Part shown: positions 9,276 to 32,051 of the stretch, one piece after another
How positions within the stretch are numbered: position 1 is the stretch's first letter
Layout: every line of letters begins with the position of its first letter
From: Methanomassiliicoccales archaeon
Lineage (GTDB): Archaea; Thermoplasmatota; Thermoplasmata; Methanomassiliicoccales; UBA472
Direction of reading: 5' to 3'
DNA: 64,000 nt
Assembly (NCBI GenBank): GCA_035527755.1
Contig: DATKZX010000006.1
Coordinates: forward strand, 26,057-90,056
Notes under the pieces: generated by a model
Database searches by the model: none
The model's input: only the letters and a program-made list of their open reading frames with translations
Told to the model about the DNA's origin: nothing
Position numbers and translations under genes: made by a program

Positions 9276-10652
9276 TTACTTTTCACTGAACTTTGACCAC
9301 ATCTCATGACGGTAAAGGGTCTTGCCTTCCTGCGAGTTGATATTGAACAAGCAGAACGGTATCAGCTTTCCATCCGGTGTCACGGTGTGAATGCAACAGT
9401 TACGGAAACGCTCCGTCTCTGAGGTCCAAGCATCCTGGAAGGCCATGGTGCTCACCGTCAGATAATTGGTCTTGGCCCGGTCCACGAAGGACCCCCACTC
9501 GTTGACCTCCTCACCCTCTTCTTCGATCTTCAGCGAATCCTCGATGAAGCGCCACAGATCGGAGATCTCCGTTCTGGTCTTGGTGGCGATAGCTTTGGTA
9601 TCCTTGGGAGGACCTAATGCCCTGCTGGTAAGGGGGAAGAGCGAACCATCCTCCATGACCACCGACATCGACTTGGCGTCACAGTGGACGTTGGAGCAGG
9701 ACGTGGGAACGAAACTGTCCACCGTAAGCTCACCGTTGGTCTGTTCTTCAATGGCCTTCAACAGATCGGGTATGGTGACCCGGTCCTCGTCCTTGGGAGA
9801 GATGGGGAAGCGCCCGAAGTACGATATCGGTTGGAAGTGCACCCCCTTGATGGTCGGGACCTTTGATTTGGCGAAGTTGATGACCTCCCCGACCCGGTCC
9901 AGATTGATGTTAGGGGAGACCACGCACACCAGGGTGATGCCCATGCCCACCTTCTCGCAGTTCTCGATGCACTTGAGCTTCTGAGCTAATATGTCACGGC
10001 CGCAGGTCTGTTTGTATATGTCGCCGTGCAATCCGTCGAAAGAGAAGTAAAGCGAGTCTACACCGGCGTCCTTGATCGTCTGCAGGAACTCGATGTCCTC
10101 GGCGAATCGTATGCCGTTAGTGTTGACCTCGATGTGATCGATGCCCATGACCTTGCCCATGCGGACGATCTCCGGCAGATCGTCGCGAATGGTCGGCTCA
10201 CCGCCGCTGATCTGCACGCAAATGGGGTGATCCACATAGTCCAGCATTGTCTGGTACATGCCCTTTATGACCTCGATCGAAGGGCTGAACTTGTAACGCT
10301 CATTGGCGCTGGCAAAGCACACTGGACACTTCAGATTGCAGCCGTTGGTGATCTCCATGACCACCAGGCAGGTGTGTTGCACGTGATCGGGGCACAATCC
10401 GCAGATCTGCGGGCAATTGTTGTCCTCCTTGACGGCCAAACGCAGGGGCTTTGACTGCACCGCCGCGTACCTCTTCATGTCCTCGTAATCTGCCACGCCC
10501 CTCCAGATAAGCACCTTCTCAGTACCGTGCTCTGGGCATTCCTTCAGCAGATATACCTTGTCGTCCTCGGCTATCTTGGTAGCGGGGACGGTCTTCAGGC
10601 ATTTGGGGCAGAGACTGTTCGTATGACCAATGACCTCGCTCATATTGTTCAC
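9276..10652 (-). CDS. radical SAM protein with an N-terminal zinc-ribbon and an extra Cys cluster (MJ0619 / tetraether-lipid-synthase-like architecture)
   Basis: Radical SAM motif GCNLKCPVCFA (CX3CX2C), preceded by CPQICGLCPDHVQHTC and by an N-terminal CPKCLK...ECPEHG ribbon. 458 aa. The specific function is inferred only from this architecture. Confidence 0.85.
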   Translation of the reverse strand: MNNMSEVIGHTNSLCPKCLKTVPATKIAEDDKVYLLKECPEHGTEKVLIWRGVADYEDMKRYAAVQSKPLRLAVKEDNNCPQICGLCPDHVQHTCLVVMEITNGCNLKCPVCFASANERYKFSPSIEVIKGMYQTMLDYVDHPICVQISGGEPTIRDDLPEIVRMGKVMGIDHIEVNTNGIRFAEDIEFLQTIKDAGVDSLYFSFDGLHGDIYKQTCGRDILAQKLKCIENCEKVGMGITLVCVVSPNINLDRVGEVINFAKSKVPTIKGVHFQPISYFGRFPISPKDEDRVTIPDLLKAIEEQTNGELTVDSFVPTSCSNVHCDAKSMSVVMEDGSLFPLTSRALGPPKDTKAIATKTRTEISDLWRFIEDSLKIEEEGEEVNEWGSFVDRAKTNYLTVSTMAFQDAWTSETERFRNCCIHTVTPDGKLIPFCLFNINSQEGKTLYRHEMWSKFSEK

Positions 10653-17707: not shown

Positions 17708-17889
17708 GCACCCCCTAGCGACCAGGAGGTATTTACAATATCGAGCGGGATCATTGAAAGTGAGCGAACTATCAGTAAGACCGCTCCAGTCTGGCCGTTA
17801 TATCATATATTTGAAAATCTCATGTAGGCGGTAGTTAATTGAGCAGGGAAGGACATGGTGAAAGGGCTGAGTCGTTCGGAGACACTGAT

Positions 17890-19110
17890 ATGACCTCCGG
17901 CACTCTCATCGATGCCGGTATGGCGAAGGTCAGAGGATTGGTCGATTGGACCATGACCGGGGACCTGCGGCATCGGATCATGGCGCTCATACTGATCGGA
18001 TGCCTGCTCTATGGCATGACCATAGCCCTTGATGCATTGGTATTACGACCGTTCTTCGGCAACGTGCTCAGTGAACCTACCGACCTGGATTTCTACCGCT
18101 TTCGGGCGGAATCGATCCTTGACGGCAAGATACCGTACGTTGATTTCTACTCGGAATCACCGCCGCTCATCATGTACATGTTCGTTCTGCCTCAGCTTGT
18201 TGGAGGCTCGGCACTTGCCTATCAGCTATACTTCGCCGTCTTCTCGATATTGACCTCGCTGACACTGTATCTGGGATTACGCCGACATGACGAGCGGATG
18301 GCCATGATGGCCGGCATAGCGTACTTGGCATACCCGCTCAGTCTGATGGAGTTCGGCATCGGAGTTCAGGACGAGGCCATCACCACTTTCCTCTTCCTGC
18401 TGCCACTGGTCCTGCTGCATCTGGAGAGGGGATGGTCATCTGGCGTCACTTCCTTGGTAGGCGTCCTCACCAAGATGTTCAATGTACTGCTGGTCCCCTG
18501 GATGTTCCTTAGTTCTGACCGGAGGAACCGTGTGGCCATCTTGATCGGCTTTACAGGACTGGCAATGCTGGTCCTGCTGCCTTTGGTGATACTGTTCCCG
18601 GACCAGCTGCCTTCCTTCCACTATTACCTCCTGGGAAACCCGGACTACCCGACCGGTGGTTCATCTATCAGCCCCTGGCATTACCTGAACGCACTGGGAT
18701 TGGGATTGCCGGGCTGGGCCGGGGTGGCCTTGACCTTATCAGGAGTAGGGGGAGCCACCCTTCTCGCCTACAAGAGAAAGCTTTCGCTCTGGCAGGGGGC
18801 AACGCTGGTGATGATGGTGTTCTTCCTGGTCTATCCTAAGATCCTGCTCGTGTACTTCGTCATGCCCACCGCCCTGCTGATGATGTGGGGGTTGGAGGAC
18901 CGGAAGGTAATGCTTCGGCTTTTAGCGATCATATTACCACTGTTCCTTTCCGTCGCCGTCACCGGGAACGGAATGGCCCCGTTGTTCGATGGACCGTGGG
19001 TGTGGGTCATTGGTATGGCCCTGAGCCTTGTCGCCTGGGGCATCATGCTGCAGACCTGGTGGACGATCAGAGATCGGAAGGTCTTCTTTGAACGTGATAA
19101 ATTATGTTGA
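17890..19110 (+). CDS. polytopic membrane protein, possibly a DUF2029/GT-C-type glycosyltransferase
   Basis: About 11 TM helices, with the first loop reading FRAESILDGKIPYVDFYSESPPLIMY, a pattern reminiscent of GT87/DUF2029. The first in-frame ATG (17890) is preceded by GGAG. The track start 17839 is TTG. Confidence 0.45.
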   Translation: MTSGTLIDAGMAKVRGLVDWTMTGDLRHRIMALILIGCLLYGMTIALDALVLRPFFGNVLSEPTDLDFYRFRAESILDGKIPYVDFYSESPPLIMYMFVLPQLVGGSALAYQLYFAVFSILTSLTLYLGLRRHDERMAMMAGIAYLAYPLSLMEFGIGVQDEAITTFLFLLPLVLLHLERGWSSGVTSLVGVLTKMFNVLLVPWMFLSSDRRNRVAILIGFTGLAMLVLLPLVILFPDQLPSFHYYLLGNPDYPTGGSSISPWHYLNALGLGLPGWAGVALTLSGVGGATLLAYKRKLSLWQGATLVMMVFFLVYPKILLVYFVMPTALLMMWGLEDRKVMLRLLAIILPLFLSVAVTGNGMAPLFDGPWVWVIGMALSLVAWGIMLQTWWTIRDRKVFFERDKLC

Positions 19111-19179: not shown

Positions 19180-21216
19180 TCAAATGAACAATGCCAGGAA
19201 CTGGCAGATATCGCTGATCTTCATCGCCAGTTCCTCCTGGGCCTCCAGATCGATTATCCAATCGTTGGCCGCCTTCCCGCCGATCTGGCCATCCATCTTG
19301 TCCAGGACGTTGTTCTGCAGGTCCATTATGGCCCCGTAGAAATCGCTATCGTCGACCATGTTGTGCAATGCACCGATGATGTTGGACAAGGCCGCCTTCA
19401 TCTTGTCCGGGTTCTTCTTGAAGGCGCTGTCCGGCAGGTTCTGGATATATTCGTCCATTATGTCCAGGGCACCGTGGGCGTCCACGACCACCACCTCAAA
19501 GGTGTCGGAGTGATATCCAGTGTCATCGTCCCAGACCGTCAAGGTCGCGGTATAGGTGCCCGGAGCCATGTAGATGTGCGACCCTGTCACTGTTCCGGAA
19601 CCATCCGTCTCAACGACCACTGTTGATTCCGTGACGCCGTCTCCCCAGTCCCACTCTGCATCATGCGTGTCCAAGGTGCCCACGTCACTGAAGCTGCCAT
19701 AGAACTCCAGGGTATGAATGACCGGCAGAATGAACTCTGGATTGGGCTGCACCATGGAATCGATGGTCACGACCGGGTTGACGTTGCTGACGGTGACGAT
19801 AGTGTTCTCGACGTCGACACCACCATCGTCATCGGTCACTGTCACCTGGATGGGGTAATCATCGAACGGTGTACCAGTGGGATTGTCGTCCAGGTACTGA
19901 TGGGCAATTGTGTACATGGGTGTCCCGGAGGGATAGTTGACCGTCTGAGGTGAGCCTTCGCCCCAATCGATGACCAGCTCGAAGGTATCGTAGATCCCCG
20001 GGTCATATATGGTGCCGTGCACCGTGGCCATTCCGTTCTCGTCTATCACATCACCGAAGATCGAGATCGATGGTGCCACATTATTGACGGTCACGGTGGT
20101 GATGTCCATATCCCTCAATCTACCATCGAACACCTCCAGGTACACTGTGCCCTCATAGTCATCGTACCAGGTATGGGACACTATGCTGGTAGTGACCCAC
20201 CCGGTATCCCAGGTTCCGTCCCCATCGTAGTCCCAGCGGTACATCAGGGAATCGTCATCCGCGCTTCCGCCCGCATCGAAATGAACGGTGGTCCCCTCAT
20301 CGACCACGTAAGGGCCGCCAGTGTCCGCTACCGGCCTTGACTCACCGGGGAAGGGCTTCAGGTAATTTACTCCCTCGATCCACCAACCCCCACCGTAGTT
20401 GGGCATGTACCAGTAATTGTTATCCACGCTGAATTCCACGTCATAGTAGATGAGGAAATCATCGGGATCGGCCTGGCCCTTATGAGAGTCGGAATCGCTC
20501 ACCCATACCCCTTTGAAATATCCATTCGGGTCAGCGACAGGGTCCACGAGCGGGTCATAGTTGTAGCCCCAGCAAGTAATGGCATGGGCGCCATCCCCGG
20601 TCACTTGGTAGATAGATAGACCGGTGGCATATCCAGCCTGCATGAACAGAGCGATGTTCTGCATCGAGATCGACCCCATGTGTATTGCACCGGCATAATT
20701 CGAGTAATCGTATGAAGATGACCAGAAGTTGCCGCCTTCTACGTCCTCAGAGGACCATCCATCACCGGGATCGGGCAAGTCTCCCATGAACCACCATTGA
20801 TGCCCGTATTCCGTGAAACTGCCCTCGTCGGTCACATGGTTGATGAAATACTGTAAGAAGTCGTCAGTGTCGTCCATGCTCCCCACGAAGCCCCAACCGG
20901 TCCACTCCATCATGTTGGAGGCCGTGGCCGCCCAACACAACAGGTCGTCCTCGGTATTGGTCGGTGATTTCTCGGCATCCGCCCAGAATCCACCGAAGTT
21001 CTCGTAAAGCATGAAACTGGTGCCGGTCGGCGTGTCATGTTCAGATTCCACCCAGGCCGCCGGGGCCCCATCATAGTCCAAGGGTCCCCCCGATCCCAAG
21101 GACGTCGACGAGGTCCCGACGACCTGTTCTCCGGCAGCGAGCGGTAATGCCGCTAATGCCGCCAAAATCATCATCGCGGCCGTGGCGAGCACGATTAATG
21201 TAGCATTTTTCATCAT
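19180..21216 (-). CDS. secreted IdeS/Mac-1-like (peptidase C66-like) cysteine protease fused to three PKD-like domains and a C-terminal helical domain
   Basis: Signal peptide MMKNATLIVLATAAMMILAALAALPLAAG (GGAGG RBS upstream of ATG 21216). DDLLCWAATASNMMEWTGW resembles IdeS DDLLCGAATAGNMLHWW. GAHAITCWGY...GVWVSDSDS resembles IdeS NHVINLWGA...IYVTDSDS. Three segments carry the WD(W/Y)GDG PKD signature. Confidence 0.7.
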   Translation of the reverse strand: MMKNATLIVLATAAMMILAALAALPLAAGEQVVGTSSTSLGSGGPLDYDGAPAAWVESEHDTPTGTSFMLYENFGGFWADAEKSPTNTEDDLLCWAATASNMMEWTGWGFVGSMDDTDDFLQYFINHVTDEGSFTEYGHQWWFMGDLPDPGDGWSSEDVEGGNFWSSSYDYSNYAGAIHMGSISMQNIALFMQAGYATGLSIYQVTGDGAHAITCWGYNYDPLVDPVADPNGYFKGVWVSDSDSHKGQADPDDFLIYYDVEFSVDNNYWYMPNYGGGWWIEGVNYLKPFPGESRPVADTGGPYVVDEGTTVHFDAGGSADDDSLMYRWDYDGDGTWDTGWVTTSIVSHTWYDDYEGTVYLEVFDGRLRDMDITTVTVNNVAPSISIFGDVIDENGMATVHGTIYDPGIYDTFELVIDWGEGSPQTVNYPSGTPMYTIAHQYLDDNPTGTPFDDYPIQVTVTDDDGGVDVENTIVTVSNVNPVVTIDSMVQPNPEFILPVIHTLEFYGSFSDVGTLDTHDAEWDWGDGVTESTVVVETDGSGTVTGSHIYMAPGTYTATLTVWDDDTGYHSDTFEVVVVDAHGALDIMDEYIQNLPDSAFKKNPDKMKAALSNIIGALHNMVDDSDFYGAIMDLQNNVLDKMDGQIGGKAANDWIIDLEAQEELAMKISDICQFLALFI

Positions 21217-21432
21217 ATGAACTCCCCTCCTGCCCGATGCCCGTACAAAAAAACAAATCGATGGACCCCGGGTTTCCATGGGGCTTTTGCCCTATGCTTT
21301 TTTGATTTATCGGCCGCTTTACATACCTTTCGGTTGTATGACCGAGGGATTGGAAGGACAGCTGTATGAAAAATGGTGAGGGGCTGGAAAAGGGGGGTCA
21401 TCGGCAAGGGACCCCCGTTCGCACCTGATCGA

Positions 21433-24400
21433 TTATTGGACCTTCTCCCCTCCCTCCTTCTCCGATCCCTCGCCCTCCTCTTTCTTACGCTTCACATAGT
21501 AGTATGTCAGAAGGACTAGCGCGACGATCAGAAGAATTATGTGCAGCCAAAGTACCCAATCGAACTGACCTCTCTCAGGGGCTTGTGGGGTGGTGATGAC
21601 CGGTTCGGAGGGAGCGCCGTCGCCGATGGTGTTGGTCGCTACCACAAAGTACGCGTATGCCTCCCCATTGATCAATCCCTCATCCGTGTAACCTGCGCTG
21701 GTTACGGAGGCCACCAGAACCGCTTCGCCGCTCTCGTTCACCCGGAACACCTTGTAGCCGGTTATCGGAGCGCCGCCATCGTCGGACGGAGTGGTCCAGT
21801 TCAGCAGGACCATCCCATCGCCAGGCACGGCGACCAGGTCGCTCGGGGCGGTGGCTACCGACTGCAGCGAGATGCTCGCTTCCGAGGAGGCCTCACTCTC
21901 ACCAGCAGAGTTGTTGGCGGTGACATAGTACCAGTAGGTGGAACCGGCTGATGCCTCATCGTCCATGAAGCTCAGCACATCGCCCACCTGTACCAGGAAC
22001 TCCTCCCCGCCGCTTTCCGTACCCCGGTAGATGGAGTAAACAACGATGGGTGATCCTCCGTCGTCCATTGGGGCTTCCCATGTCAGGACCACGAAGTCTT
22101 GTCCCCTTGTGGCCTCCAGGCCGAGCGGTGCGGAAGGCGTGCCTAATATGATCGCCGAGGCAAATTCGGACATGGCTCCCGCGCCTGCGAAGTTGACTGC
22201 CACCACGGAATACCAGTATTCCCGTCCCACCTCCACGGCGGAGTCGGCATAGGTCAGCACGCTGCCCACGGTGCTCAGGAGAACCTCCTCCCCTGGCGGT
22301 CCGCGATACACCTGAAAGTTGGTGATCTGGGAGCCCCCGTCGTTCTCCGGGGCTAGCCAGGTCAGGGTGATGGCCGACGCCCCAGCCACCGCCTGCATGG
22401 ACCGGGGTGCGCCAGGCACGCTTGACGGGGTCGCGGAGACCTTGTTAGAGGAAGGACCCTCACCGGCCTGGTTGACCGCGGTGATATAGTACCAGTAGGT
22501 CTGGCCGTTGGATAGTCCAGCGTCGATGAAGCTCAGTACGTTCCCAGTCTCAACCAGGAACTCCTCACTGCCTTCCTCCATTCCACGGTAAATGACATAA
22601 CCTATGATAGGCACGCCACCTTCGTGGGACGGAGCGGACCAGGCCAGTTCGATTTGGGAGTCCCCGGCCACCGCGATCAACACCGAGTCGTTCGAGGGAA
22701 CGGCCATGGGCATGGCGGAGACCTCGTTGGATGCCGCCCCAGACCCTTCAGAATTCACGGCCAAGACATAGTAGAAGTAGGTGGCTCCGTTCTGCACTTC
22801 GCTGTCGGTATGGTTCGTGCTAGTGACGGTGGTGAGATAAGCCTCCTCCCCGCTGACGTTGCCGCGGAATATCTCATAGCCTGTGATGACCGCACCTCCG
22901 TCCTCCGACGGGGAGGTCCAACCCAGGAACACGATGGAATCTCCGGCGACCGCCTGCAATTCCAGAGGTGCAGAGGGGGCCAACCGGATGATGGTGGTGG
23001 CCTCGTTGGAGGCGGGCCCCTCGCCCAGGGCGTTGACCGCTCTGACGTAGTACCAATATTCCTGTCCGACCTGCGCAGTGTCATCCTGATATGAGGTGAC
23101 CGCGCCGATCGTCGCCAGCAGCTCCTCTCCGCTGGCCTCTTCACCGCGGTAGACCATGTAGCCGCTGACGGGTGACCCACCATCATCCGTCGGGGCGGTC
23201 CAGGTGATGATTATGTTGGAGGGGTCGGCAGAAGCCTGCAGCTCCTGTGGTGCAGAAGGGACGGCTGCCGGGATCGCGGATACCTCATAGGATGCGGAGC
23301 CCGCACCCGCGATGTTGACGGCTTTGACTATGTAAAAGAACTCCATGCCGTTCTCCAATCCAGTATCGGTGTAGTTCGTCTCGCCAACGGAGGTCAGATA
23401 CGTTTCCTCACCGCTAGCATTCCCGCGATGTACTTCGTAGCCAGTCACCGAGGAACCTCCGTCCAGCGACGGAGCGGACCAGGTCAGTGATATCGCTTCG
23501 TCACTGGCCATTGCCATTAATGACAATGGTGAGGACGGAGGTATAACGATCACTGACGATGCCTCGTTGGATGCGACGCTTTCACCAGCACTGTTCACTG
23601 CGGTGACATAATAGTAGTATCCCACCCCTGGCTCGACCGATGTGTCCAGATAGGTGGTGACGTTGCCCAGTGTTATCAATAGAGACTTGTTGCCGCTGGT
23701 AACCCCGCGATATACCTCGTAGTTGGTTATGGCCGAACCGCCATTGGAGGCGGGAGGCGACCAGCCTAGGCCGATGTCCTCCATGCCTGCGATCGCCTGC
23801 AGGTCGGTTGGAGCGGAGGCATGGGTCATCGGCACGGCCGATACTTCGTTGGACGCGGCCCCTTCCCCGACCGCGTTGACAGCGGTGACGTAATACCAGT
23901 AAGTGACCCCATTGGTCAACCCCGCGTCTAGAAAGGATGTTGACCCGTAGACGGCCAACAGGGGTATCTCCCCGCCATTGGTCTGACCGCGATATAGTAC
24001 GTAGTATTGCACCGTTGAACCACCGTCATCGGTGGGCGCGTCCCAGGTGAGCATGGCCTGGCCGTTGCCAGGGATGACCTGCACATCCATTGGTTGCGAG
24101 GGCAAGGCCATTGGCACGACCGAAACCTCGTTGGACACGGTGCTCTCGCCGATGGCGTTCACTGCCACCACGTAGTACCAGTAGGTCTCTCCGTTGACCG
24201 CCGTGGTATCCTCGTACCATTGAACGTCGCCGATGGTGGTCAGCAAGGTCTCCCCACCGCTTTCGCTGCCGCGGTATACCTTATACCCGGTGATGGGAGA
24301 ACCGCCGTCCCAGGTCGGCTCTGTCCAGCTCAGAGTGACCTGGGCGTCCCCGGCGGCCGCCATGAGCTCCAGGGGAGTGGTCGGCGCCACCAGTACCTGG

Positions 24401-25482
24401 TGCGAGTATCTCAGGTTCATGTTGGTGACGTCATAGTAGGTGACATGGACGTTGTTCAGGGAATCGAGAGCCATGGAGGGATAGCGCCCCACGTTACCGG
24501 AGGTGTCCACCGCACCGAGGGTCCATCCGTCCCACGCGTCATTGGCATACCAGATGTCCCCGTTCAGGGAATCGTAGAACACCATATGCACTACGTCGTC
24601 CTCGTCCACGATGAGATCGGTATATATGCCGTTGATGGCTGTGTCACTGATCAGTTCGATTCTCCAGGCACCTTCCTCGTTGGTGGCGTACTTGAGGAAA
24701 CCGGTCGTGGCATCCCAGTAGCAGATGTGCGCCTTGTTCGTGGAGTCCACACCAATGGATGAATACACGCCCACCGTACCTGCGGTATCTATGGACGTAG
24801 TGGTCCAAACACCGCCTGGATTGGTCGCATAGCGTAGGTCCCCGTTGGTATTATCATAATAGGAGATGTGAACGATGTCGTTGTGGTCCACCGCAATGGA
24901 TGAGTACCAGCCCACGTCGTTGGTGCTGTCGACGACGGACAGTGCCCAACTTCCGCCGGAATTGGTGGCGTACTTGAGGTTTCCATTCGTGGCGTCGTAA
25001 TAACTGATGTGCGTGTTGCCGATCGAATCAAGGGCCAGGGAGGCGAATCGCCCCACGTCCCCAGCGGTGTCTATGCCGATCTTGACCCAGCCCCCGCCTT
25101 CGTTGGTGGCGTACTTGAGGTTGCTGTTCGGGTAATTGTAATAGACCATGTGGATGTAATCGTTAGCGTCGACGGCTAGGGAAGTCTCCTGCCCGGCATA
25201 TGCCCCTGTCTCCAGGGCGACGTTGGTCCAGACGCCGCTCTTATTGGTCGCGTACATCAGATAACCGTTGGTCGAGTCGTGGTAGCTGATGTGTACGAAA
25301 TCGTTGGAATCCAGTCCGATGGATGAATAGCTCCCGACGTCGTCCACGCTATAGATCGTATAAGTGCTCCAGGCGGGTAATGGTCCCGCCCCTGCCGCCC
25401 CCGGTGCGAGCACCGGAAGGACGGATATCAACATAATCGCTGCAATCAATGCGCATGCTAGTGACCTCTTAGTACCTTCCAT
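21433..25482 (-). CDS. large cell-surface protein: signal/anchor, 7 beta-propeller-like repeats, 10 FN3-like repeats, C-terminal TM anchor and charged tail
   Basis: ATG 25482 with GAGGGGG upstream. There are seven ~46-aa units ending (L/I)(K/R/M)YATN..G.W and ten ~92-aa units with the Y.VYRG...YWYYV.AVN..GES..S.E pattern. C-terminal WVLWLHIILLIVALVLLTYYYV is followed by KRKKEEGEGSEKEGGEKVQ. Confidence 0.85.
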   Translation of the reverse strand: MEGTKRSLACALIAAIMLISVLPVLAPGAAGAGPLPAWSTYTIYSVDDVGSYSSIGLDSNDFVHISYHDSTNGYLMYATNKSGVWTNVALETGAYAGQETSLAVDANDYIHMVYYNYPNSNLKYATNEGGGWVKIGIDTAGDVGRFASLALDSIGNTHISYYDATNGNLKYATNSGGSWALSVVDSTNDVGWYSSIAVDHNDIVHISYYDNTNGDLRYATNPGGVWTTTSIDTAGTVGVYSSIGVDSTNKAHICYWDATTGFLKYATNEEGAWRIELISDTAINGIYTDLIVDEDDVVHMVFYDSLNGDIWYANDAWDGWTLGAVDTSGNVGRYPSMALDSLNNVHVTYYDVTNMNLRYSHQVLVAPTTPLELMAAAGDAQVTLSWTEPTWDGGSPITGYKVYRGSESGGETLLTTIGDVQWYEDTTAVNGETYWYYVVAVNAIGESTVSNEVSVVPMALPSQPMDVQVIPGNGQAMLTWDAPTDDGGSTVQYYVLYRGQTNGGEIPLLAVYGSTSFLDAGLTNGVTYWYYVTAVNAVGEGAASNEVSAVPMTHASAPTDLQAIAGMEDIGLGWSPPASNGGSAITNYEVYRGVTSGNKSLLITLGNVTTYLDTSVEPGVGYYYYVTAVNSAGESVASNEASSVIVIPPSSPLSLMAMASDEAISLTWSAPSLDGGSSVTGYEVHRGNASGEETYLTSVGETNYTDTGLENGMEFFYIVKAVNIAGAGSASYEVSAIPAAVPSAPQELQASADPSNIIITWTAPTDDGGSPVSGYMVYRGEEASGEELLATIGAVTSYQDDTAQVGQEYWYYVRAVNALGEGPASNEATTIIRLAPSAPLELQAVAGDSIVFLGWTSPSEDGGAVITGYEIFRGNVSGEEAYLTTVTSTNHTDSEVQNGATYFYYVLAVNSEGSGAASNEVSAMPMAVPSNDSVLIAVAGDSQIELAWSAPSHEGGVPIIGYVIYRGMEEGSEEFLVETGNVLSFIDAGLSNGQTYWYYITAVNQAGEGPSSNKVSATPSSVPGAPRSMQAVAGASAITLTWLAPENDGGSQITNFQVYRGPPGEEVLLSTVGSVLTYADSAVEVGREYWYSVVAVNFAGAGAMSEFASAIILGTPSAPLGLEATRGQDFVVLTWEAPMDDGGSPIVVYSIYRGTESGGEEFLVQVGDVLSFMDDEASAGSTYWYYVTANNSAGESEASSEASISLQSVATAPSDLVAVPGDGMVLLNWTTPSDDGGAPITGYKVFRVNESGEAVLVASVTSAGYTDEGLINGEAYAYFVVATNTIGDGAPSEPVITTPQAPERGQFDWVLWLHIILLIVALVLLTYYYVKRKKEEGEGSEKEGGEKVQ
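21610..24390 (-). repeat. intragenic tandem array of ten FN3-like modules (about 275 bp each)
   Basis: Repeated protein blocks (GGS.(I/V)TGY.VYRG, YWYYV.AVN..GEG..SNE) are read ten times in the 21433..25482 translation. The copies are diverged, not identical. Confidence 0.8.
24397..25365 (-). repeat. intragenic array of seven ~46-aa propeller-like blades
   Basis: Blade ends LMYATNKSGVW, LKYATNEGGGW, LKYATNSGGSW, LRYATNPGGVW, LKYATNEEGAW, IWYANDAWDGW and LRYSHQV are each preceded by a (H/Y)(I/M/V).Y(Y/H)D strand. Confidence 0.7.
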
Positions 25483-25834
25483 ATCTGACCCCCTCAAAAT
25501 TGCATATTTATTAATGATTCTCTTTATCGATTATGATATTATAAAAACATTGAGATAACTATAATGGATTTGGTACAATCTTGAAACAAAAAACACGTGA
25601 GATGTTTGACCCACGCATACATCGGTCTGCTATATAGACCGTCCAATAAATATGTTAACATTGTTAACTAGAGGAACTATAAGAGAAAGGGATCGAGAGA
25701 CCGAACATTAGAAAATTATCAAAGGACACCGAGTCACAGTTCAATCTCGACATCGTTCCACAAAATATTGTCCTGCGACATATCAGTAAGGAATTTAACG
25801 GGGCATTCGCCCCTAAGTGGTTTGATATTTACGC

Positions 25835-26017
25835 TTAGAACCTGTCCTTCGGCTTGTGCTTCTGGAAGCAGTCCCTGCAATATACAGGCCTGCCCTCAGT
25901 CGGTTTGAAAGGGACTTGTGTCTTCGCGCCGCAGTCGGAGCAAACTACATCGCTCATTTCGCGCGGCCCATCGTTTCTGGGGCGGAAGCCCCCGGAATTA
26001 CCTCTGTTTCCATACAT
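25835..26017 (-). CDS. small CxxC-x17-CxxC zinc-ribbon protein with a Gly/Arg-rich N-terminus
   Basis: MYGNRGNSGGFRPRNDGPREMSDVVCSDCGAKTQVPFKPTEGRPVYCRDCFQKHKPKDRF (60 aa from ATG 26017). The CSDC-x17-CRDC spacing is the pattern of the archaeal CxxC-x17-CxxC domain as I recall it. Confidence 0.6.
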   Translation of the reverse strand: MYGNRGNSGGFRPRNDGPREMSDVVCSDCGAKTQVPFKPTEGRPVYCRDCFQKHKPKDRF

Positions 26018-26238
26018 TACTAAACTACCTACTGTTGTTTTCCTACACCCTTTCGAATGCAGGACAAACCTGTCCATGATGTCACTACTATTTAAGAGGA
26101 TGTACTGAAGCGGTCTTTGAGCACTAAAACCCCCATTACACGATATTATATCGATATTATTATCAATAAATGTATAAATTAATCAAAGAAGGACGGTTTG
26201 GAACTCAGATCTTGGTCATGAAGCATATTAGGAGCACA

Positions 26239-27186
26239 TCAATCATGGATGAACTCGAGCATCTCCGACAAATGCTGCGCAAAATCATCGGGGAAGTCGT
26301 GACCCAGACCCTCAACGACCTGCAACAAAGTTGGGATACCCATCTCGTCCATGATCCTTTTAACTTCCTTTCCGGTTTCGAACGAGATCGAGTCCATATC
26401 CCCGCATAGAACGCATATTTTTAACCCTTGTCGGGCAAGATTTCGGATCGCCCCCTCCCATTCCTTAATTTCCGGCAAATAGGGGGCGACGAGTATGAGC
26501 CCTTTCGGATGGAGATCCCCATACAATACAGAATAAAATGCCAATCTGGCCCCTCCCGAGAATCCGGACAGGACCCACTCACCTCCGGTGATGTCATGCT
26601 CTTTTTCCAGATCTTGTAGATGGCTGTTGATCTCCATAAGACCTTTTTCAAGGTCTTTCCAAGTGTACGTCCCATGGGATGTGATCTGGGATGATTGCGG
26701 GAAAGCCAGTGAACAACCTTCCAATAACAATGAATGCCAGTTCTTCTCTGTTAGTGCAACGCTGTCCCCGTTTCCGTGCAGCGCCATGAGCCAGGGGCTT
26801 TGCGTGGATGATCCCCCCAGTGGCATTATAATTTTTAGCTCGGCCCGGACCTCTTTCCTTGCTAAGATCTCGCGTTCCCGACAGATATCGGCCAGGTAAG
26901 TGAATTCCTTTTGGTCCCGGATGTTCTTCAGATCATCATCCTGCAGCAGATATTCGTAAGGATACCAATATTCAGTGCCGATGATGGCCTCGCGCATGAT
27001 ATTCATGGCCATTTCCGTTCGCCCCAACTTGCTGGCGATGCAACACTTGAAGTTGAGTATTTGTGCCCGATCACCTTCTACCTCACCCCCATACTTCTCG
27101 ATCAGGTCGAGGGCCCCCTCCAATTTACCCTCATTATAGAGATCGATGGCTTGATGGACCAATCGAAAATAGGTCATTTCGGGCAT
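26239..27186 (-). CDS. TPR-like N-terminal domain fused to an alpha/beta hydrolase (phospholipase/carboxylesterase-like)
   Basis: Nucleophile elbow GFSGGA, downstream GDMD and GLGHDF (Ser/Asp/His order), and a helical-repeat N-terminus. 315 aa. Confidence 0.6.
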   Translation of the reverse strand: MPEMTYFRLVHQAIDLYNEGKLEGALDLIEKYGGEVEGDRAQILNFKCCIASKLGRTEMAMNIMREAIIGTEYWYPYEYLLQDDDLKNIRDQKEFTYLADICREREILARKEVRAELKIIMPLGGSSTQSPWLMALHGNGDSVALTEKNWHSLLLEGCSLAFPQSSQITSHGTYTWKDLEKGLMEINSHLQDLEKEHDITGGEWVLSGFSGGARLAFYSVLYGDLHPKGLILVAPYLPEIKEWEGAIRNLARQGLKICVLCGDMDSISFETGKEVKRIMDEMGIPTLLQVVEGLGHDFPDDFAQHLSEMLEFIHD

Positions 27187-27501
27187 GATGATCTAATTAA
27201 ACTGCACATAGATAATGATTTAAGACCGCAACTTCCGAATCGACAGCCTTTGTACCAGAGTGCTCGGATCGATTTATTAAAACAATTATCAATAAATATA
27301 TTTGAGAACTTCACTGAACAATGCCGAAACGATTTCCCATATCTGATCGCGAACTGTTAGGTGGTTTCTATATCCATTATCGAAAAGGGATCATCGGAAC
27401 CACCCCCCCCCATAAAAATGAAGATTTCCTGAAACATCTAATGCAATTAAATAAATCTGAAAATAGCCCATTCGTGATGTTACGTTGACGGGGTTGATCG
27501 A

Positions 27502-27705
27502 ATGTTCAAATATGAATATAAATTAAATTGGGCTGGAGAAATATATCAAGGTACCCTTGAATGCGAGAACAATGAGGATTCCAAGAGAGAGGTGAAACAG
27601 AAGTTGAAGGAGATAGGAGCCCCGAAAGGAAAATATATTTTCGTAGATATAATAAGACTAGAAGATAACAAGATAATCGTTTCAGAAGAACTATGGATGG
27701 CATAA
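27502..27705 (+). CDS. hypothetical 67-aa protein
   Basis: Track ORF in AT-rich DNA with GGGG upstream of the ATG. No recognisable motif. Confidence 0.3.
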   Translation: MFKYEYKLNWAGEIYQGTLECENNEDSKREVKQKLKEIGAPKGKYIFVDIIRLEDNKIIVSEELWMA

Positions 27706-27844
27706 CGGCATTCTTGAAAGAGATATCCATTATGCCGACGGGGGCCATTATCGCGATTCGGTCGGGTGGTCAATGCAAATATTCAGGAAACGAGTTAGAT
27801 ACTCAGTATCGAATACTATGTATCGAAAATAATGAGGTCGCCCT

Positions 27845-28327
27845 ATGAAATGCATTGTCGTTTACGATAGCGTGTACGGTAACACCAAGCAGGTGGCTGA
27901 AGCGATCGCCGATCAGATAAAGGCCGACGGGAACGAGATCGCCTTGGTAAGTTTGAGAGAGAACACCAAGCCCGTTCTGAACGGGGACATCATGTTCCTC
28001 GGTTCTCCCACACGAGTGTTCAAGATGACCCCTGCGGCCAAGAACTTCGTCAAGGGATTGAAGACCCAGGGCTGGAAGGATCAACCGATCGTCATGTTCG
28101 ACACCATGATGGGCGTACCTGAGGACATGGCCGAGAGGAGCATGGACAAGTGGGCCGTCAAGGGAGCAGCTCCCAAGCTTAGGGACCTTGCCAAGAGCGA
28201 GGGGCTCAACGCCCAGAACGCCGTGCTACACATAGGCGTCACCGGACTGAAGGGGCCGTTGACCGTCACGGGCAAGGAAGAGGCGAGACAGTTCGCGCAG
28301 CAGACCATGGCCTCGCTGAAGAAGTGA
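27845..28327 (+). CDS. flavodoxin family protein
   Basis: MKCIVVYDSVYGNTKQVAEAIADQI is an FMN phosphate-binding loop pattern. 160 aa. Confidence 0.85.
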   Translation: MKCIVVYDSVYGNTKQVAEAIADQIKADGNEIALVSLRENTKPVLNGDIMFLGSPTRVFKMTPAAKNFVKGLKTQGWKDQPIVMFDTMMGVPEDMAERSMDKWAVKGAAPKLRDLAKSEGLNAQNAVLHIGVTGLKGPLTVTGKEEARQFAQQTMASLKK

Positions 28328-28620
28328 GGCCGGAAGTCAATGGACCTTTCGATCGGCAATGATATTGGGAATCGGACTACGGTTTGAATTGCCGAAAGAA
28401 CCCTTCGAGAAAAATGGTCGAACGTATCATTTAAATGGATCCTTTGATCGATGTAGAGAACGACCAGGTCTTCGAAACTTTCTCCAGGCCCACAGACCAT
28501 CGTCCATCAAGAGAACGATCGTTCGAGAATCTAGAGAACGCAACGAGTTTAGCAAACAGATCGATCTTAACGATAGGGTAAACGTAAATAGTCGGATGAT
28601 AACTGTAAATCAGTGAGTGA

Positions 28621-28959
28621 ATGCGGAGAACGATCAAGGAAGCGATCGTGGGCATCGCGCTCATCATCTCCTTTGTGGCATTGTTCTGGTTCGTTCGGTT
28701 GGAGATGACCACTTCCAACGAAGGATTTGTAATCGCCGCGTTGATAATGGGGGCCTTATGTCTCATAAGCATATTTGCCCTGGTCACATTCTCCAGATCG
28801 GGATGGGATCTTGAAGGTTCTCCAGGAGAATGGATCGCTGCTGCTTTTATAGATCCGACAATACTGATCTTTTATAAAAATATAGAAAATGAGGATGCTG
28901 TAGCGATGGAGAGGAAGAACCAGAGATTGGATTATGAATACTGGAATAGAAGAAAGTGA
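28621..28959 (+). CDS. hypothetical membrane protein (2 TM)
   Basis: IVGIALIISFVALFWFV and FVIAALIMGALCLISIFALV helices. The stop is followed by the hairpin TGATCT-CTCGAA-AGATCA. Confidence 0.45.
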   Translation: MRRTIKEAIVGIALIISFVALFWFVRLEMTTSNEGFVIAALIMGALCLISIFALVTFSRSGWDLEGSPGEWIAAAFIDPTILIFYKNIENEDAVAMERKNQRLDYEYWNRRK

Positions 28960-29229
28960 TCTCTCGAAAGATCAATGATCGACCTGGTTGCGCATATTGA
29001 AGCTTTTCACAATAATTCGACCTGAATGTATTATTCTTAAAACGGATCTGTTCGAGACATAATTGGTAGTACTTTATATTGCGAGGTTTTGCATCATTTA
29101 AGTTATTGTAAGATATTTACTGTCGAGATACCTAATGAACAAGAAGAAAGATTATTATTTTCTTAGTTTTTTTATAATTGTAATAGATATGGTCCTTATT
29201 CTTACGCGATCATTTCAAAAAAGGAAAAC

Positions 29230-30042
29230 GTGAACCCCGTGTCTGATCTTGTAACGTATTTCTACCTATTTCCCCTGGGAATTGCCATCGCCATGCTCGC
29301 GATCTCAGCAGGCATATCAGGTTCAAATTTCTGGATCCCGATCTATGTCATCTGGCTAGGGATCGATCCGAAAACATCATTCTGGCTCGCGCTCCTTACT
29401 ATGCTCTTCGGATTCGGCTCTGGAATCGTCAGGAACCTGAAGAGCGGGACGGTAAACTGGTCGATCGTCAAACAATACCTGAAGATCACAGTCCCGTTCG
29501 CCATTATAGGGACGTTAGTGGTTCCTTTTGCCCCGGCAGAATTGCTCCTTGTACTCTTCGGAAGTTTTGTTATTCTCTATGGGGCGTTCCAGATCTGTCG
29601 TAATTGGCTGTTTTCCCGGAATAACGAACCTGCGGTCATAGAGACGGGGGAAAAGATCTACTGGATCCGGGCTGCGATAGCCGGGTTCCTCAAAGGTCTG
29701 ATCGCTACGGGGACAGGGAAAATAATCATGCCCTGCATTCTCAAACACTGCAAGATCCGTACAGCCGCGGAAGCCGTGGGTTCAACGGTCGTCATCATTT
29801 TTGTGGTAAACCTGTTCGCCTTGCTCTTTCGCCTGACCCCCGGTTTTATTTCAACCCTTGTTGAACAGAAAGAACTGATCTTCAATATCATGATCTGGGT
29901 CGCTCCTGGGGTATTGATCGGTGGTCAGATCGGCCCGGAAGTGGCAAAAAAATTGTCGAAGAGGGGAATACAGATCTATGTAGGGATCCTGCTGGTATTC
30001 GTTGGTATTTTGATCTTTCTGCGAACTTTTTCCGGAGTTTGA
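29230..30042 (+). CDS. TauE/SafE (TSUP) family anion exporter
   Basis: 270 aa and about 8 TM helices in the two-half TSUP-like arrangement (GISGSNFWIPIY..., GTGKIIMPCIL...). GTG start. Confidence 0.65.
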   Translation: MNPVSDLVTYFYLFPLGIAIAMLAISAGISGSNFWIPIYVIWLGIDPKTSFWLALLTMLFGFGSGIVRNLKSGTVNWSIVKQYLKITVPFAIIGTLVVPFAPAELLLVLFGSFVILYGAFQICRNWLFSRNNEPAVIETGEKIYWIRAAIAGFLKGLIATGTGKIIMPCILKHCKIRTAAEAVGSTVVIIFVVNLFALLFRLTPGFISTLVEQKELIFNIMIWVAPGVLIGGQIGPEVAKKLSKRGIQIYVGILLVFVGILIFLRTFSGV

Positions 30043-30163
30043 TGCTATATCTACGAGACCACACATGTTTTTTGCGAAGCATTGTTTGCTATCGATAGGG
30101 GGAAATTTCGTATCATCCTAGAGACGAACATCCTGCCCCTGATACCGAACATTTGAACGAGGG

Positions 30164-31704: not shown

Positions 31705-32051
31705 GTTTTCACCTTTTTAAAACTAGTTTGATTATAATATCGTTTAGATGGTATCGATATTTATTCTTATACAAAGAAAGTTAATGTGAAGTCAGAGCGA
31801 TTCTATTTATCTAAATAGATTACATAAAACAACTAAGTTTTTCCACAGCCAGTGTAGACAAATATTGGTGTGAGGGTAGTAAATAATTAATTAAAATGAC
31901 CCTTTTAATCCAATGATGCTTCCGTTTGACCTGCCTTCGAATTTCCAGACCATGAATAAAAGTAAGGAATATGATTTCTGTGATCGGGCATAAAAAATGA
32001 TCATCCGATAAAATTATCCTCGCTTGGGAAATCTCATCGGATGGGTATATT

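What the first reader, a model, noticed from the sequence alone, without database searches (positions are those of the whole stretch)
19180..21216. IdeS/Mac-1-like cysteine protease with an intact catalytic triad, fused to PKD domains, in an archaeon
After a signal peptide, the N-terminal ~300 aa align by eye with the streptococcal IgG-degrading enzyme IdeS (peptidase C66):
- DDLLCWAATASNMMEW matches DDLLCGAATAGNMLHW. This is the nucleophile Cys, codon 20935-20937, residue 94 from the predicted start.
- GAHAITCWGY matches NHVINLWGA. This is the His, codon 20584-20586.
- GVWVSDSDS matches AIYVTDSDS. This is the Asp, codon 20494-20496.

Three PKD-like modules and a helical tail follow.

As far as I know, C66-type enzymes are known mainly from host-associated bacteria. 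An archaeal, secreted, multidomain version sitting next to a giant FN3 surface protein is unexpected. It could process surface proteins or host or environmental proteins.
Basis: partly seen in the sequence, partly recalled or inferred. Interest (0 to 1): 0.7.

Follow-up and report, generated by a model that had tools for sequence, protein, structure and literature searches.

The report
Archaeal secreted IdeS-family cysteine protease
This archaeal gene encodes a secreted cysteine protease truly related to the streptococcal antibody-cutting enzyme IdeS, but it belongs to a large, uncharacterised environmental branch of that family, so it is a sound annotation rather than a rarity.

Summary
The ORF 19180-21216 (-) encodes 678 aa, and the quoted motifs and codon coordinates are exact. 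Homology to peptidase family C66 (IdeS/Mac-1) is real. Pfam Mac-1 scores above its gathering cutoff. A 41-sequence family profile hits IdeS at E=1.6e-14. A confident AlphaFold model (pLDDT 87.9) has only C66 structures as its 12 best PDB matches. Five C66 active-site positions are present: the Cys94/His211/Asp241 triad, the oxyanion-hole Lys83 and its partner Asp243. All are near-invariant in relatives. The window is archaeal (RadA). The full-length model shows a signal peptide, the protease, three beta-sandwich (PKD-type) modules and a confident C-terminal four-helix bundle.

The enzyme is not an oddity. An exhaustive search finds 2,420 cluster representatives. A survey of species genomes finds 172 relatives, mostly Planctomycetota, often PEP-CTERM-tagged. 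The PKD-plus-helix-bundle version groups as one clade across Thermoplasmata, Methanomassiliicoccales, Bathyarchaeia and Asgard MAGs.

A link to the neighbouring FN3 surface protein is not supported by conserved synteny. Substrate and biological role remain inferred. Verdict: a new, divergent member of a known family, of moderate interest.

The parts
19180..21216 (-). Complete CDS, 678 aa plus stop: secreted C66-family cysteine protease, three beta-sandwich modules and a helix bundle
   Evidence: ORF list. The identical 678-aa product is called on at least 12 metagenome contigs.
21222..21230 (-). SD-like GGAGGGGAG, 5 nt upstream of the ATG at 21216. It supports the 678-aa start over the ATG at 21279.
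   Evidence: Read directly from the sequence. The functional role is inferred.
21130..21216 (-). Signal peptide, about residues 1-29 (MMKNATLIVLATAAMMILAALAALPLAAG). There is no lipobox Cys.
   Evidence: Sequence. Modelled as a lone helix 2-22 followed by a disordered stretch. The cleavage site is inferred.
21052..21129 (-). Low-confidence linker, about residues 30-55
   Evidence: pLDDT below 50 for residues 21-56 or 27-41 in the two models. Poorly conserved in alignment A1.
20347..21051 (-). Papain-fold C66 (Mac-1/IdeS-like) protease domain, about residues 56-290
   Evidence: Pfam PF09028 above its gathering score. Family profile against IdeS E=1.6e-14. AF2 pLDDT mostly above 94 in the core. 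The top 12 Foldseek PDB hits are all C66.
20968..20970 (-). Lys83, equivalent of IdeS/IdeC Lys84 (oxyanion-hole side chain)
   Evidence: Aligned K-to-K by HMMER. Present in 72 of 73 genome-derived relatives, the other being a gap. Role taken from PMC12418751.
20935..20937 (-). Cys94, catalytic nucleophile (equivalent of IdeS Cys94), at the N-terminus of helix 94-106
   Evidence: Invariant in A1. Aligned to IdeS Cys94. Helix start seen in the model.
20584..20586 (-). His211, catalytic base (equivalent of IdeS His262), at the start of strand 210-220
   Evidence: Aligned to IdeS HVINLWG. 73 of 73 conserved.
20488..20496 (-). Asp241-Ser242-Asp243. Asp241 is the third triad member (IdeS Asp284). 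Asp243 is the equivalent of Asp286, which salt-bridges the oxyanion Lys.
   Evidence: Aligned to IdeS VTDSDS. D241 in 72 of 73, S242 in 73 of 73, D243 in 73 of 73. Roles taken from PMC12418751 and PMC11833123.
20083..20340 (-). Beta-sandwich module 1 (PKD-type), about residues 293-378
   Evidence: Aligns to collagenase PKD domains. All-beta in the model. The motif RPVAD...YRWD.DGDG.WDT...VFDGRLRD is conserved in archaeal relatives.
19786..20070 (-). Beta-sandwich module 2, about residues 383-477. Ig-like by model only.
   Evidence: All-beta in the model, block-mean pLDDT about 61-87. No Pfam hit above cutoff. Only weak LapB_rpt_80 and MG2 hits.
19486..19773 (-). Beta-sandwich module 3, a PKD domain, about residues 482-577
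   Evidence: Pfam PKD_4 E=3.6e-18, best stretch 501-577, and PKD E=3.1e-8. All-beta in the model.
19183..19479 (-). C-terminal four-helix bundle, residues 580-678. A clade-specific module with no family match.
   Evidence: Helices 580-592, 603-622, 626-641 and 657-677; block-mean pLDDT 89-97 apart from one loop block at 67. No Pfam hit at E<=1. Conserved in L006, L008, L009, L024, L051 and L065, with 16 invariant columns. The profile search finds only 20 fragments, several with PKD domains.

Best explanation
The gene encodes a Sec-secreted, catalytically competent cysteine endopeptidase of MEROPS family C66 (Pfam Mac-1; the IdeS / IdeC / T-Mac family, clan CA papain fold).

Proposed mechanism, by homology:
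- Cys94 sits at the N-terminus of the central helix and attacks the scissile carbonyl.
- His211, on the opposing beta-sheet lobe, acts as the general base and is oriented by Asp241.
- The tetrahedral intermediate is stabilised by the Cys94 backbone amide and by the Lys83 side chain. A Lys in this role is the C66 hallmark, in place of papain's Gln. Lys83 is held in position by Asp243.

The catalytic domain is followed by three Ig-like (PKD-type) beta-sandwich modules. These most likely act as spacers or binding modules. A clade-specific C-terminal four-helix bundle follows. Because the protein has no membrane anchor, PEP-CTERM or PGF-CTERM signal, I infer the bundle mediates non-covalent retention or oligomerisation.

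The most likely biological role is extracellular cleavage of protein substrates in anoxic sediment or soil: either detrital or foreign proteins for nutrition, or specific surface or matrix proteins. The role is not antibody cleavage.

Shown here: homology, conservation of the active-site residues, fold, architecture, archaeal host and phyletic spread. Inferred: activity, secretion, the roles of the PKD modules and the helix bundle, and the substrate.
For: - Family homology: Pfam Mac-1 scores 23.1 bits (full protein) and 26.2 bits (domain alone) against a gathering score of 20.3. 28 of 41 relatives hit Mac-1, best E=1.3e-10.
- Solved structures by sequence: the family profile hits IdeS 2au1 at E=1.6e-14, IdeC 9hb1 at 2e-11 and T-Mac 9mdo at 4.9e-10. 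No other protease family appears.
- Fold: AF2 model with pLDDT 87.9 and pTM 0.82. Foldseek ranks 1-12 are all C66 (E from 1e-9 to 2e-7, TM 0.46-0.52). Cathepsins appear only at about 1e-3 and SpeB at 6.8e-3.
- Active site: HMMER aligns K83/C94 with IdeS K84/C94, and H211/D241/D243 with H262/D284/D286. The roles of those residues are described in PMC12418751 and PMC11833123.
- Conservation: C94 is invariant, and K83, H211, D241, S242 and D243 are at least 90% conserved in A1. They are present in 72-73 of 73 genome-derived domains.
- Topology: Cys at the helix N-terminus; His at the start of one strand and Asp just after the end of the next, in the other lobe.
- Secretion: an N-terminal hydrophobic helix followed by a disordered linker. 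Relatives carry extracellular sorting modules: PEP-CTERM in 19 of 41 and dockerin in 2.
- Architecture.
- Ecology: relatives occur in Thermoplasmata, Bathyarchaeia, Asgard and Planctomycetota MAGs. Extracellular peptidases are reported as widespread in the archaeal lineages among these (PMC9123169).
Against: - There is no biochemical evidence of any kind.
- Identity to solved C66 enzymes is only 17-22%, and TM-scores are moderate at about 0.5.
- Triad distances could not be measured because model coordinates are not exposed.
- The single-sequence hits are marginal: PDB phmmer E=0.0045, and Pfam is only about 3-6 bits above its cutoff. The case therefore rests on the family profile and the fold.
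- The substrate is unknown.
- Characterised C66 enzymes are narrow-specificity endopeptidases that rely on exosites, which sits uneasily with a bulk nutritional role.
- PMC9123169 cautions that the presence of extracellular peptidase genes does not predict protein catabolism.
- The functions proposed for the PKD modules and the helix bundle are inference only.
Confidence: 0.8

Rival explanations
1. Dedicated maturase or sheddase for the adjacent 1354-aa FN3 surface protein. The protease would cleave that neighbour, or other self surface proteins, as part of envelope biogenesis.
For: The two genes are adjacent and co-oriented, at 21433-25497 and 19180-21216, both on the minus strand. The neighbour is a membrane-anchored multi-FN3 protein. 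Characterised C66 enzymes cut Ig-fold-rich substrates (PMC11833123, PMC12418751). A neighbour with similarity to the FN3 protein is also present in two Thermoplasmata loci, L005 and L013.
Against: The gene pairing is absent from the other 11 archaeal loci examined (L006-L010, L016, L024, L051, L054, L065, L078). The two positive cases are close relatives, and their matches may simply reflect repeated FN3 or propeller domains. In L005 the neighbour is on the opposite strand. A 216-bp gap separates the two genes here, and it contains an A/T-rich promoter-like stretch. Most family members are stand-alone PEP-CTERM proteins.
Confidence: 0.1
2. A papain-fold enzyme with non-peptidase chemistry. Examples would be a transglutaminase-like cross-linker, an amidase or cell-wall (pseudomurein or peptidoglycan) hydrolase, or an acyltransferase. 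All of these can use the same Cys-His-Asp triad.
For: The Cys-His-Asp triad on a papain-like fold is shared by many non-protease families (PMC10318531 reviews this diversity). No substrate is known for this clade.
Against: All of the best sequence and structure matches are true endopeptidases, C66 first and then C1 cathepsins and staphopains. No transglutaminase, NlpC/P60 or CHAP entries appear among the top 50 or in Pfam. The C66-specific Lys oxyanion-hole residue and its Asp partner are conserved.
Confidence: 0.06
3. A catalytically dead adhesin or binding module that merely keeps the fold (a pseudo-protease), or a chance or over-interpreted similarity to C66.
For: The single-sequence statistics are weak: phmmer E=0.0045, and Pfam only about 3 bits over its cutoff for the whole protein. 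The protein has an adhesin-like architecture with Ig-like modules.
Against: All five catalytic or oxyanion positions are intact and near-invariant over 73 diverse relatives. That degree of conservation is not expected in a pseudo-enzyme. The profile-level match (1.6e-14) and the fold-level match (1e-9) exclude chance.
Confidence: 0.03

Closest known systems
IdeS / Mac-1 (Streptococcus pyogenes) and IdeC (S. canis), MEROPS C66, PDB 1Y08, 2AU1, 2AVW, 8A47, 9HB1
   Same: - Best sequence-profile and structural matches.
- Secreted papain-fold enzymes with no evident long prodomain.
- Cys/His/Asp triad, Lys oxyanion-hole residue and its Asp partner at aligned positions (PMC12418751).
- The local motifs DDLLC.AAT..N and V(T/S)DSDS are nearly identical.
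   Different: - Only 17-22% identity and TM about 0.5.
- The IdeS-type enzymes matched here are single-domain chains of about 290-320 residues in the PDB from animal pathogens, and they are specific for the IgG hinge.
- This protein is archaeal and carries three Ig-like modules plus a helix bundle.
- It lives where there are no immunoglobulins, so the substrate must differ.
T-Mac, the C-terminal domain of Treponema denticola TDE0362, PDB 9ARC, 9MDK, 9MDM, 9MDO
   Same: - A C66 protease domain fused to Ig-like domains in one secreted polypeptide.
- Second-best structural match, E=2.4e-9.
- It shows that C66 enzymes need not cut IgG: it cleaves C3, C3b, C4 and factor H, but not IgG (PMC11833123).
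   Different: - T-Mac has Asn as its third triad residue (Cys412/His561/Asn585). This protein has Asp, as in IdeS.
- T-Mac's Ig-like domains are N-terminal and are cleaved off. Here the beta-sandwich modules are C-terminal and of PKD type.
- T-Mac is a host-associated spirochaete virulence factor.
Uncharacterised environmental Mac-1-domain proteins of Planctomycetota and Desulfobacterota (PEP-CTERM-tagged or giant multidomain proteins)
   Same: - The closest true relatives, at 35-50% identity.
- Same conserved active-site residues.
- Same sediment and soil metagenome sources.
   Different: - The bacterial versions are mostly proteins of about 260-300 aa ending in a PEP-CTERM sorting signal (19 of 41), or proteins of more than 2000 aa.
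- The archaeal-type clade instead has PKD modules plus the four-helix bundle, and groups separately in an NJ tree.
Secreted hydrolases with PKD modules, e.g. clostridial collagenases ColG/ColH (PDB 4JRW, 4AQO, 2Y72)
   Same: The PKD modules here align with collagenase PKD domains. The general logic of a catalytic domain followed by tandem PKD accessory modules is the same.
   Different: The catalytic class is different: M9 metalloprotease there, C66 cysteine protease here. No collagen-binding domain is present here.

Membership tests
MEROPS C66 / Pfam PF09028 (Mac-1, IdeS family) | Scores above the curated Pfam gathering threshold for PF09028 | tested here: met
   23.1 bits for the whole protein and 26.2 bits for the domain alone, against a cutoff of 20.3. 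28 of 41 relatives also match, best E=1.3e-10. The margin for this single sequence is small.
MEROPS C66 / Pfam PF09028 (Mac-1, IdeS family) | Catalytic triad Cys / His / Asp (or Asn) at positions homologous to IdeS Cys94 / His262 / Asp284 | tested here: met
   HMMER alignments pair C94, H211 and D241 with the IdeS residues. They are invariant or near-invariant in relatives. IdeS numbering is taken from PMC11833123 and PMC12418751.
MEROPS C66 / Pfam PF09028 (Mac-1, IdeS family) | C66-type oxyanion hole: a Lys side chain (IdeS Lys84) held by a salt bridge to a second Asp (Asp286), instead of papain's Gln | tested here: met
   K83 aligns with K84, and D243 with D286. They are present in 72 of 73 and 73 of 73 relatives. 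This is met at the sequence level only. The salt bridge itself was not measured.
MEROPS C66 / Pfam PF09028 (Mac-1, IdeS family) | Two-lobe papain-like fold that is closest to solved C66 structures | tested here: met
   AF2 pLDDT 87.9. Foldseek ranks 1-12 are all C66, at E from 1e-9 to 2e-7. The next family (cathepsins) appears at about 1e-3. TM is only 0.46-0.52, so this is a divergent member.
MEROPS C66 / Pfam PF09028 (Mac-1, IdeS family) | Triad residues in catalytic geometry in three dimensions (Cys S-gamma to His N-delta about 3.5-4 Å; His to Asp hydrogen bond) | not testable with these tools
   Model coordinates are not exposed to the scripting environment. Only the topology is consistent: Cys at a helix N-terminus, and His and Asp on successive strands.
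MEROPS C66 / Pfam PF09028 (Mac-1, IdeS family) | Cysteine-dependent, E-64- or iodoacetamide-sensitive endopeptidase activity | not testable with these tools
   This requires expression and an enzyme assay.
Immunoglobulin-degrading enzymes (functional class: IdeS, IdeZ, IdeC, IdeSsuis) | Specific cleavage of IgG or IgM | not testable with these tools
   Not tested. It is implausible on ecological grounds (an archaeon known from environmental metagenomes). It is also not a requirement for C66 membership, since T-Mac does not cleave IgG (PMC11833123).
Pfam PKD / PKD_4 domain | Scores above the gathering threshold | tested here: met
   PKD_4 scores 65.8 bits against 27, and PKD 33.9 against 23.5, with two stretches each. 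The middle beta-sandwich (383-477) is Ig-like by model only.
MEROPS C10 (streptopain/SpeB, interpain) and other clan CA families (C1, C47, C39-like) | Best profile or structural match is to that family | tested here: not met
   No Pfam hit to Peptidase_C10, C1 or C39 at E<=10. SpeB appears at Foldseek rank 40, E=6.8e-3, and cathepsins and staphopains at E>=8.7e-4. All are at least 4,000-fold weaker than the weakest C66 hit, 2e-7.
Exosortase / archaeosortase cargo (PEP-CTERM, PGF-CTERM) | C-terminal sorting signal: a motif, a transmembrane helix and a basic tail | tested here: not met
   The protein ends in an amphipathic helix...KISDICQFLALFI. It has no PEP/PGF motif, no transmembrane helix and no Arg/Lys tail, and no PF07589 hit. 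By contrast, 19 of 41 relatives have a PEP-CTERM signal.

The most novel reading that the evidence does not exclude
The IdeS family did not originate as an anti-antibody weapon. Its ancestral and still dominant role would be in environmental microbes, where it cuts specific Ig-fold-rich (FN3, PKD, S-layer-like) surface or matrix proteins of the producer or of competing cells. The archaeal clade, with its PKD modules and a previously undescribed four-helix-bundle module, would then be a surface-associated, substrate-specific endopeptidase exchanged among sediment archaeal phyla. These enzymes could be a source of new sequence-specific proteases with an IdeS-like exosite mechanism.
Probability: 0.15. 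Interest if true: 0.7.

Novelty: new member of a known kind. Interest (0 to 1): 0.4.

Why it matters
IdeS-family enzymes are medically and biotechnologically important. Imlifidase is an approved drug, and IdeS and IdeZ are standard antibody-engineering tools. The papers I could search treat the family as bacterial and host-associated. PMC10318531 says 'C66 ... contains bacterial proteins', and the T-Mac survey in PMC11833123 found cysteine-protease hits in only 10 bacterial genera.

This locus shows something different. The family has a very large environmental radiation, with at least 2,420 clusters at 50% identity. It also has a coherent multi-phylum archaeal clade with its own architecture. 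In the standard annotation on record the protease domain goes unrecognised: the precomputed Pfam hits for this protein list only PKD, the named close homologues are 'hypothetical protein', and no NCBIfam model matches the protease domain.

This matters in three ways:
1. For annotating extracellular peptidase inventories of sediment archaea. MEROPS BLAST at 1e-20, as used in PMC9123169, would probably miss enzymes this divergent.
2. For understanding where the antibody-cleaving virulence factors came from.
3. As a pool of potentially very specific cysteine endopeptidases.

It is not a new mechanism or a new kind of system.

Tried and rejected
- **Tail search, single sequence.** The C-terminal tail alone found nothing, because of the word-index limitation.
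- **Tail search, 7-sequence profile.** It found only 20 hits, mostly contig-end fragments and several with PKD domains. The idea that the helix bundle is a widespread archaeal sorting or anchoring module is not supported.
- **Pfam on the tail.** No hit at E<=1.
- **Foldseek of the full-length model.** It returned only generic tandem Ig-like arrays (CD109, S-layer proteins, mastigonemes). This says nothing about the tail or about any multidomain homologue.
- **Synteny test by BLASTP.** ORFs from 13 archaeal loci were compared with the window's ORFs. No conserved operon was found, so I rejected a dedicated partnership with the FN3 protein or the GT87-like glycosyltransferase as the leading explanation.
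- **Sigma-70 promoter and terminator scan.** The counts are close to shuffled expectation (4 against 2.3, and 3 against 2.0), and the scan is not applicable to archaeal promoters.
- **Original IdeS structure paper, PMC536041.** It is not held. Residue roles were taken from PMC12418751 and PMC11833123 instead.
- **Taxonomy of L008, the 'Dehalococcoidia' member of the PKD-fused clade.** Four of the five neighbouring ORFs scanned have no NCBIfam match, and the fifth is an IstB/DnaC-like ATPase. The result is inconclusive, and mis-binning or horizontal transfer both remain possible.
- **Low-GC stretch at 26-36 kb next to tRNA-Leu.** I found no integrase or other mobile-element genes.
- **Literature searches for C66 or PF09028 in archaea or environmental bacteria.** They found no report. 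This is absence in the held library only.
Full report
**1. What is in the sequence**

The minus strand carries an ORF at 19180..21279 (699 aa from the first ATG). Three things favour that start:
- Gene callers used it for the identical protein on at least 12 independent metagenome contigs (ENA ERZ272568xx, JGI 3300031565). The four loci shown have the same neighbours.
- A GGAGGGGAG sits 5 nt upstream.
- It puts a typical signal-peptide-like hydrophobic segment at the N-terminus.

The window is archaeal. ORF 472-1413 is RadA (483.7 bits against a cutoff of 259). There is also a Tes/TrsS-type radical-SAM enzyme, a CODH/ACS subunit and an MtaA-like methyltransferase. The closest named homologues are from Methanomassiliicoccales and Thermoplasmata MAGs.

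**2. Is the IdeS similarity real?**

With the single sequence the evidence is marginal but positive. Pfam Mac-1 (PF09028) scores E=4.5e-5 and 23.1 bits against a gathering score of 20.3. The domain alone scores 26.2 bits. phmmer against PDB sequences gives IdeS at E=0.0045.

With family information the match becomes unambiguous. I collected 46 homologues of the N-terminal 292 aa and aligned 41 sequences (A1). The profile hits IdeS/Mac-1 (2au1) at E=1.6e-14, other IdeS entries at about 1e-12, IdeC (9hb1, listed as 'IgM protease' in the sequence file) at 2e-11, and Treponema T-Mac (9mdo) at 4.9e-10. Nothing else is significant. Of the 41 members, 28 individually match Pfam Mac-1.

An AlphaFold2 model of residues 1-292 built on A1 is confident: pLDDT 87.9, pTM 0.82, and the core mostly above 94. 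Its 12 best Foldseek matches in the PDB are all C66 structures, at E from 1e-9 to 2e-7. Cathepsins and staphopains begin at about 1e-3, and SpeB (C10) is at 6.8e-3. TM-scores are only 0.46-0.52 and identity is 17-22%. So this is a divergent member, but C66 is clearly the nearest family.

**3. Active site**

PMC12418751 (IdeC) and PMC11833123 (T-Mac) describe the C66 active site:
- The triad is Cys94, His262 and Asp284.
- Lys84 is positioned by a salt bridge to Asp286.

HMMER's alignments map these to Cys94, His211, Asp241, Lys83 and Asp243 here. The Lys and the second Asp are additional, C66-specific evidence.

In A1, Cys94 is invariant and the other four are at least 90% conserved. I also examined an independent set of 73 domains cut from species-representative genomes. 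These were selected only on the Cys motif. In that set Lys83 is present in 72 of 73 (the other is a gap), His211 in 73 of 73, Asp241 in 72 of 73 and Asp243 in 73 of 73.

In the model, Cys94 opens helix 94-106, His211 lies at the start of strand 210-220, and Asp241 follows strand 234-240. That is the papain topology.

**4. Architecture**

A full-length model (pLDDT 83.4; pTM 0.57, as expected for beads on a string) gives the following layout:
- Signal helix, residues 2-22.
- Disordered linker, to about residue 55.
- Protease domain, about 56-290.
- Three beta-sandwiches, at about 293-378, 383-477 and 482-577.
- A four-helix bundle, 580-677. Its block-mean pLDDT is 89-97, apart from one loop block at 67.

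Pfam calls PKD_4 (E=3.6e-18) and PKD, with two stretches each. Modules 1 and 3 align to collagenase PKD domains. Module 2 is Ig-like by model only.

There is no transmembrane anchor, PEP-CTERM, PGF-CTERM or lipobox. The mature protein is very acidic (pI about 4.05; 111 Asp+Glu against 15 Lys+Arg). It has only three cysteines: 94, 215 and 671.

**5. The helix bundle**

The tail has no Pfam match. It is nevertheless conserved, with 16 invariant columns. Examples are IQ.L near its start and DG....DWI.D..AQ....K near its end. It occurs in homologues of about 620-890 aa from a Thermoplasmatales MAG (L006), three Bathyarchaeia MAGs (L009, L024, L051), an unclassified archaeon (L065) and one MAG labelled Dehalococcoidia (L008).

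A profile search found only 20 hits, mostly contig-end fragments and several attached to PKD domains. On present evidence the module therefore belongs to this protein family only. Two Asgard homologues (L010, L078) carry a different, longer helical C-terminus. Its function is unknown. In the absence of any covalent anchor signal I infer retention or oligomerisation.

**6. How common is it, and where?**

An exhaustive HMMER search of 1.84 billion cluster representatives (50% identity) with A1 gives 2,420 proteins at E<=1e-3, 1,732 at E<=1e-10 and 676 at E<=1e-30. Lengths among the 150 best hits listed range from 258 to 7,391 aa, and some proteins have two matched stretches.

In one genome per GTDB species, 172 loci encode a relative. 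The best 80 are overwhelmingly Planctomycetota (Pirellulales, Planctomycetaceae, Phycisphaerae, Thermoguttaceae). Some are Desulfobacterota, Anaerolineales or Gammaproteobacteria. The archaeal carriers are Thermoplasmata, Methanomassiliicoccales, Bathyarchaeia, Promethearchaeia and Hodarchaeota. All are MAGs, and the best identity is 52%.

Bacterial members are typically proteins of about 260-300 aa ending in PEP-CTERM (19 of 41), or giant multidomain proteins. A neighbour-joining tree of 73 domains groups all PKD-fused versions together, apart from the bacterial radiation: the window, L006, L013, L007, L010, L008, L009, L024, L051 and L065. The Hodarchaeota copy falls among bacterial sequences. 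The tree is midpoint-rooted, has no support values and no streptococcal outgroup. It therefore suggests, but does not prove, one archaeal-type clade spread across phyla.

**7. Genomic context**

Upstream and co-oriented is a 1354-aa protein (21433-25497) with 10 FN3 stretches and a C-terminal transmembrane segment. Downstream and convergent is a GT87-like membrane glycosyltransferase (17839-19110).

I compared all ORFs of 13 archaeal loci with the window's ORFs. Only L005 and L013, both from Thermoplasmata-class MAGs, have a neighbour resembling the FN3 protein. No other neighbour is shared. There is therefore no conserved operon.

**8. Most likely function**

I commit to the following: a secreted, active C66 cysteine endopeptidase that uses the Cys94-His211-Asp241 triad and a Lys83/Cys94-NH oxyanion hole.

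The substrate cannot be immunoglobulin. T-Mac shows that C66 specificity is plastic: it cleaves C3, C3b, C4 and factor H, but not IgG (PMC11833123). The lineages carrying the archaeal clade are those for which extracellular peptidases are reported as widespread (PMC9123169). That paper also warns that such genes do not prove protein catabolism. I therefore rank generic extracellular proteolysis or processing first, dedicated processing of the neighbour second, non-peptidase chemistry third, and a dead domain or chance similarity last.

**9. Novelty**

By Pfam's own threshold this is a member of a known family, so it is a new member of a known kind. It is, however, a divergent one, with a new architecture and host domain.

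In the held literature I found no report of archaeal or environmental C66 enzymes. PMC10318531 describes C66 as containing bacterial proteins. The protease domain is not recognised in the precomputed annotation of this protein, by NCBIfam, or in the names of its homologues.

The value of the finding lies in annotation and evolutionary context, and possibly in enzyme discovery. It does not reveal a new mechanism.

Noticed in passing
window 19183-19479 (-); also L006, L008, L009, L024, L051, L065: The C-terminal, roughly 100-aa four-helix bundle is a conserved module with 16 invariant columns. It has no Pfam match, and so far it is found only at the end of this protease-PKD protein family. Asgard homologues (L010, L078) have a different, longer helical C-terminus.
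   Followed up: partly
window 21433-25497 (-): The neighbouring 1354-aa protein has a signal-like N-terminus followed by about 330 aa of roughly 45-residue repeats ending in '...Y(A/S)TN/H'. These look like a beta-propeller, though no family was matched. After them come 10 FN3 stretches and a C-terminal transmembrane segment with a charged tail. Partial look-alikes flank the protease gene in L005 and L013 only.
   Followed up: partly
L005 5983-6588 and 6841-8367; L013 6106-7128 and 7118-7897: In two Thermoplasmata-class MAGs the orthologous protease gene is split into two ORFs. This could be a frameshift or pseudogene, or an assembly error.
   Followed up: no
window 26001-36000, next to tRNA-Leu(TAA) at 37094-37180 (-): This roughly 10-kb stretch has clearly lower G+C (0.44-0.48 against 0.51-0.62 elsewhere) and abuts the window's only tRNA gene. 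The ORFs there include an alpha/beta-hydrolase, TauE, DUF116 and a Glucodextran_B-domain protein. No integrase or other mobile-element gene was found.
   Followed up: partly
window 9276-10652 (-) and 6556-8007 (-): A radical-SAM protein scores above the NCBIfam cutoff for 'radical SAM (seleno)protein TrsS' (528.7 against 490) and also matches tetraether lipid synthase Tes. About 1.3 kb away is a DVU_1553-family AMP-dependent CoA ligase match that falls below its cutoff (268 against 300).
   Followed up: no
L008 9165-10556 (-): The only bacterial-labelled (Dehalococcoidia) member of the PKD-plus-helix-bundle clade sits on a 10.6-kb contig, about 1.5 kb from an IstB/DnaC-like AAA ATPase (IS21-helper type), with one ORF between them. 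The other four neighbouring ORFs scanned have no NCBIfam match. The taxonomic label is therefore unverified, and mobility or mis-binning is possible.
   Followed up: partly
window 19183-21129 (-), mature protein: The mature protein is extremely acidic (pI about 4.05; 111 Asp+Glu against 15 Lys+Arg over 649 aa). It has only three cysteines, one of which is the nucleophile.
   Followed up: no
representative proteins P0047, P0048, P0049, P0065, P0087, P0106: Some family members have two matched stretches to the protease profile in one chain, suggesting two protease domains. Others embed the domain deep inside giant proteins of 2,800-7,400 aa.
   Followed up: no
window 57688-60699 (+): The CODH/ACS alpha/beta-type protein (1003 aa) matches its NCBIfam model only from residue 311 onward. 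The N-terminal 310 residues or so are unassigned.
   Followed up: no
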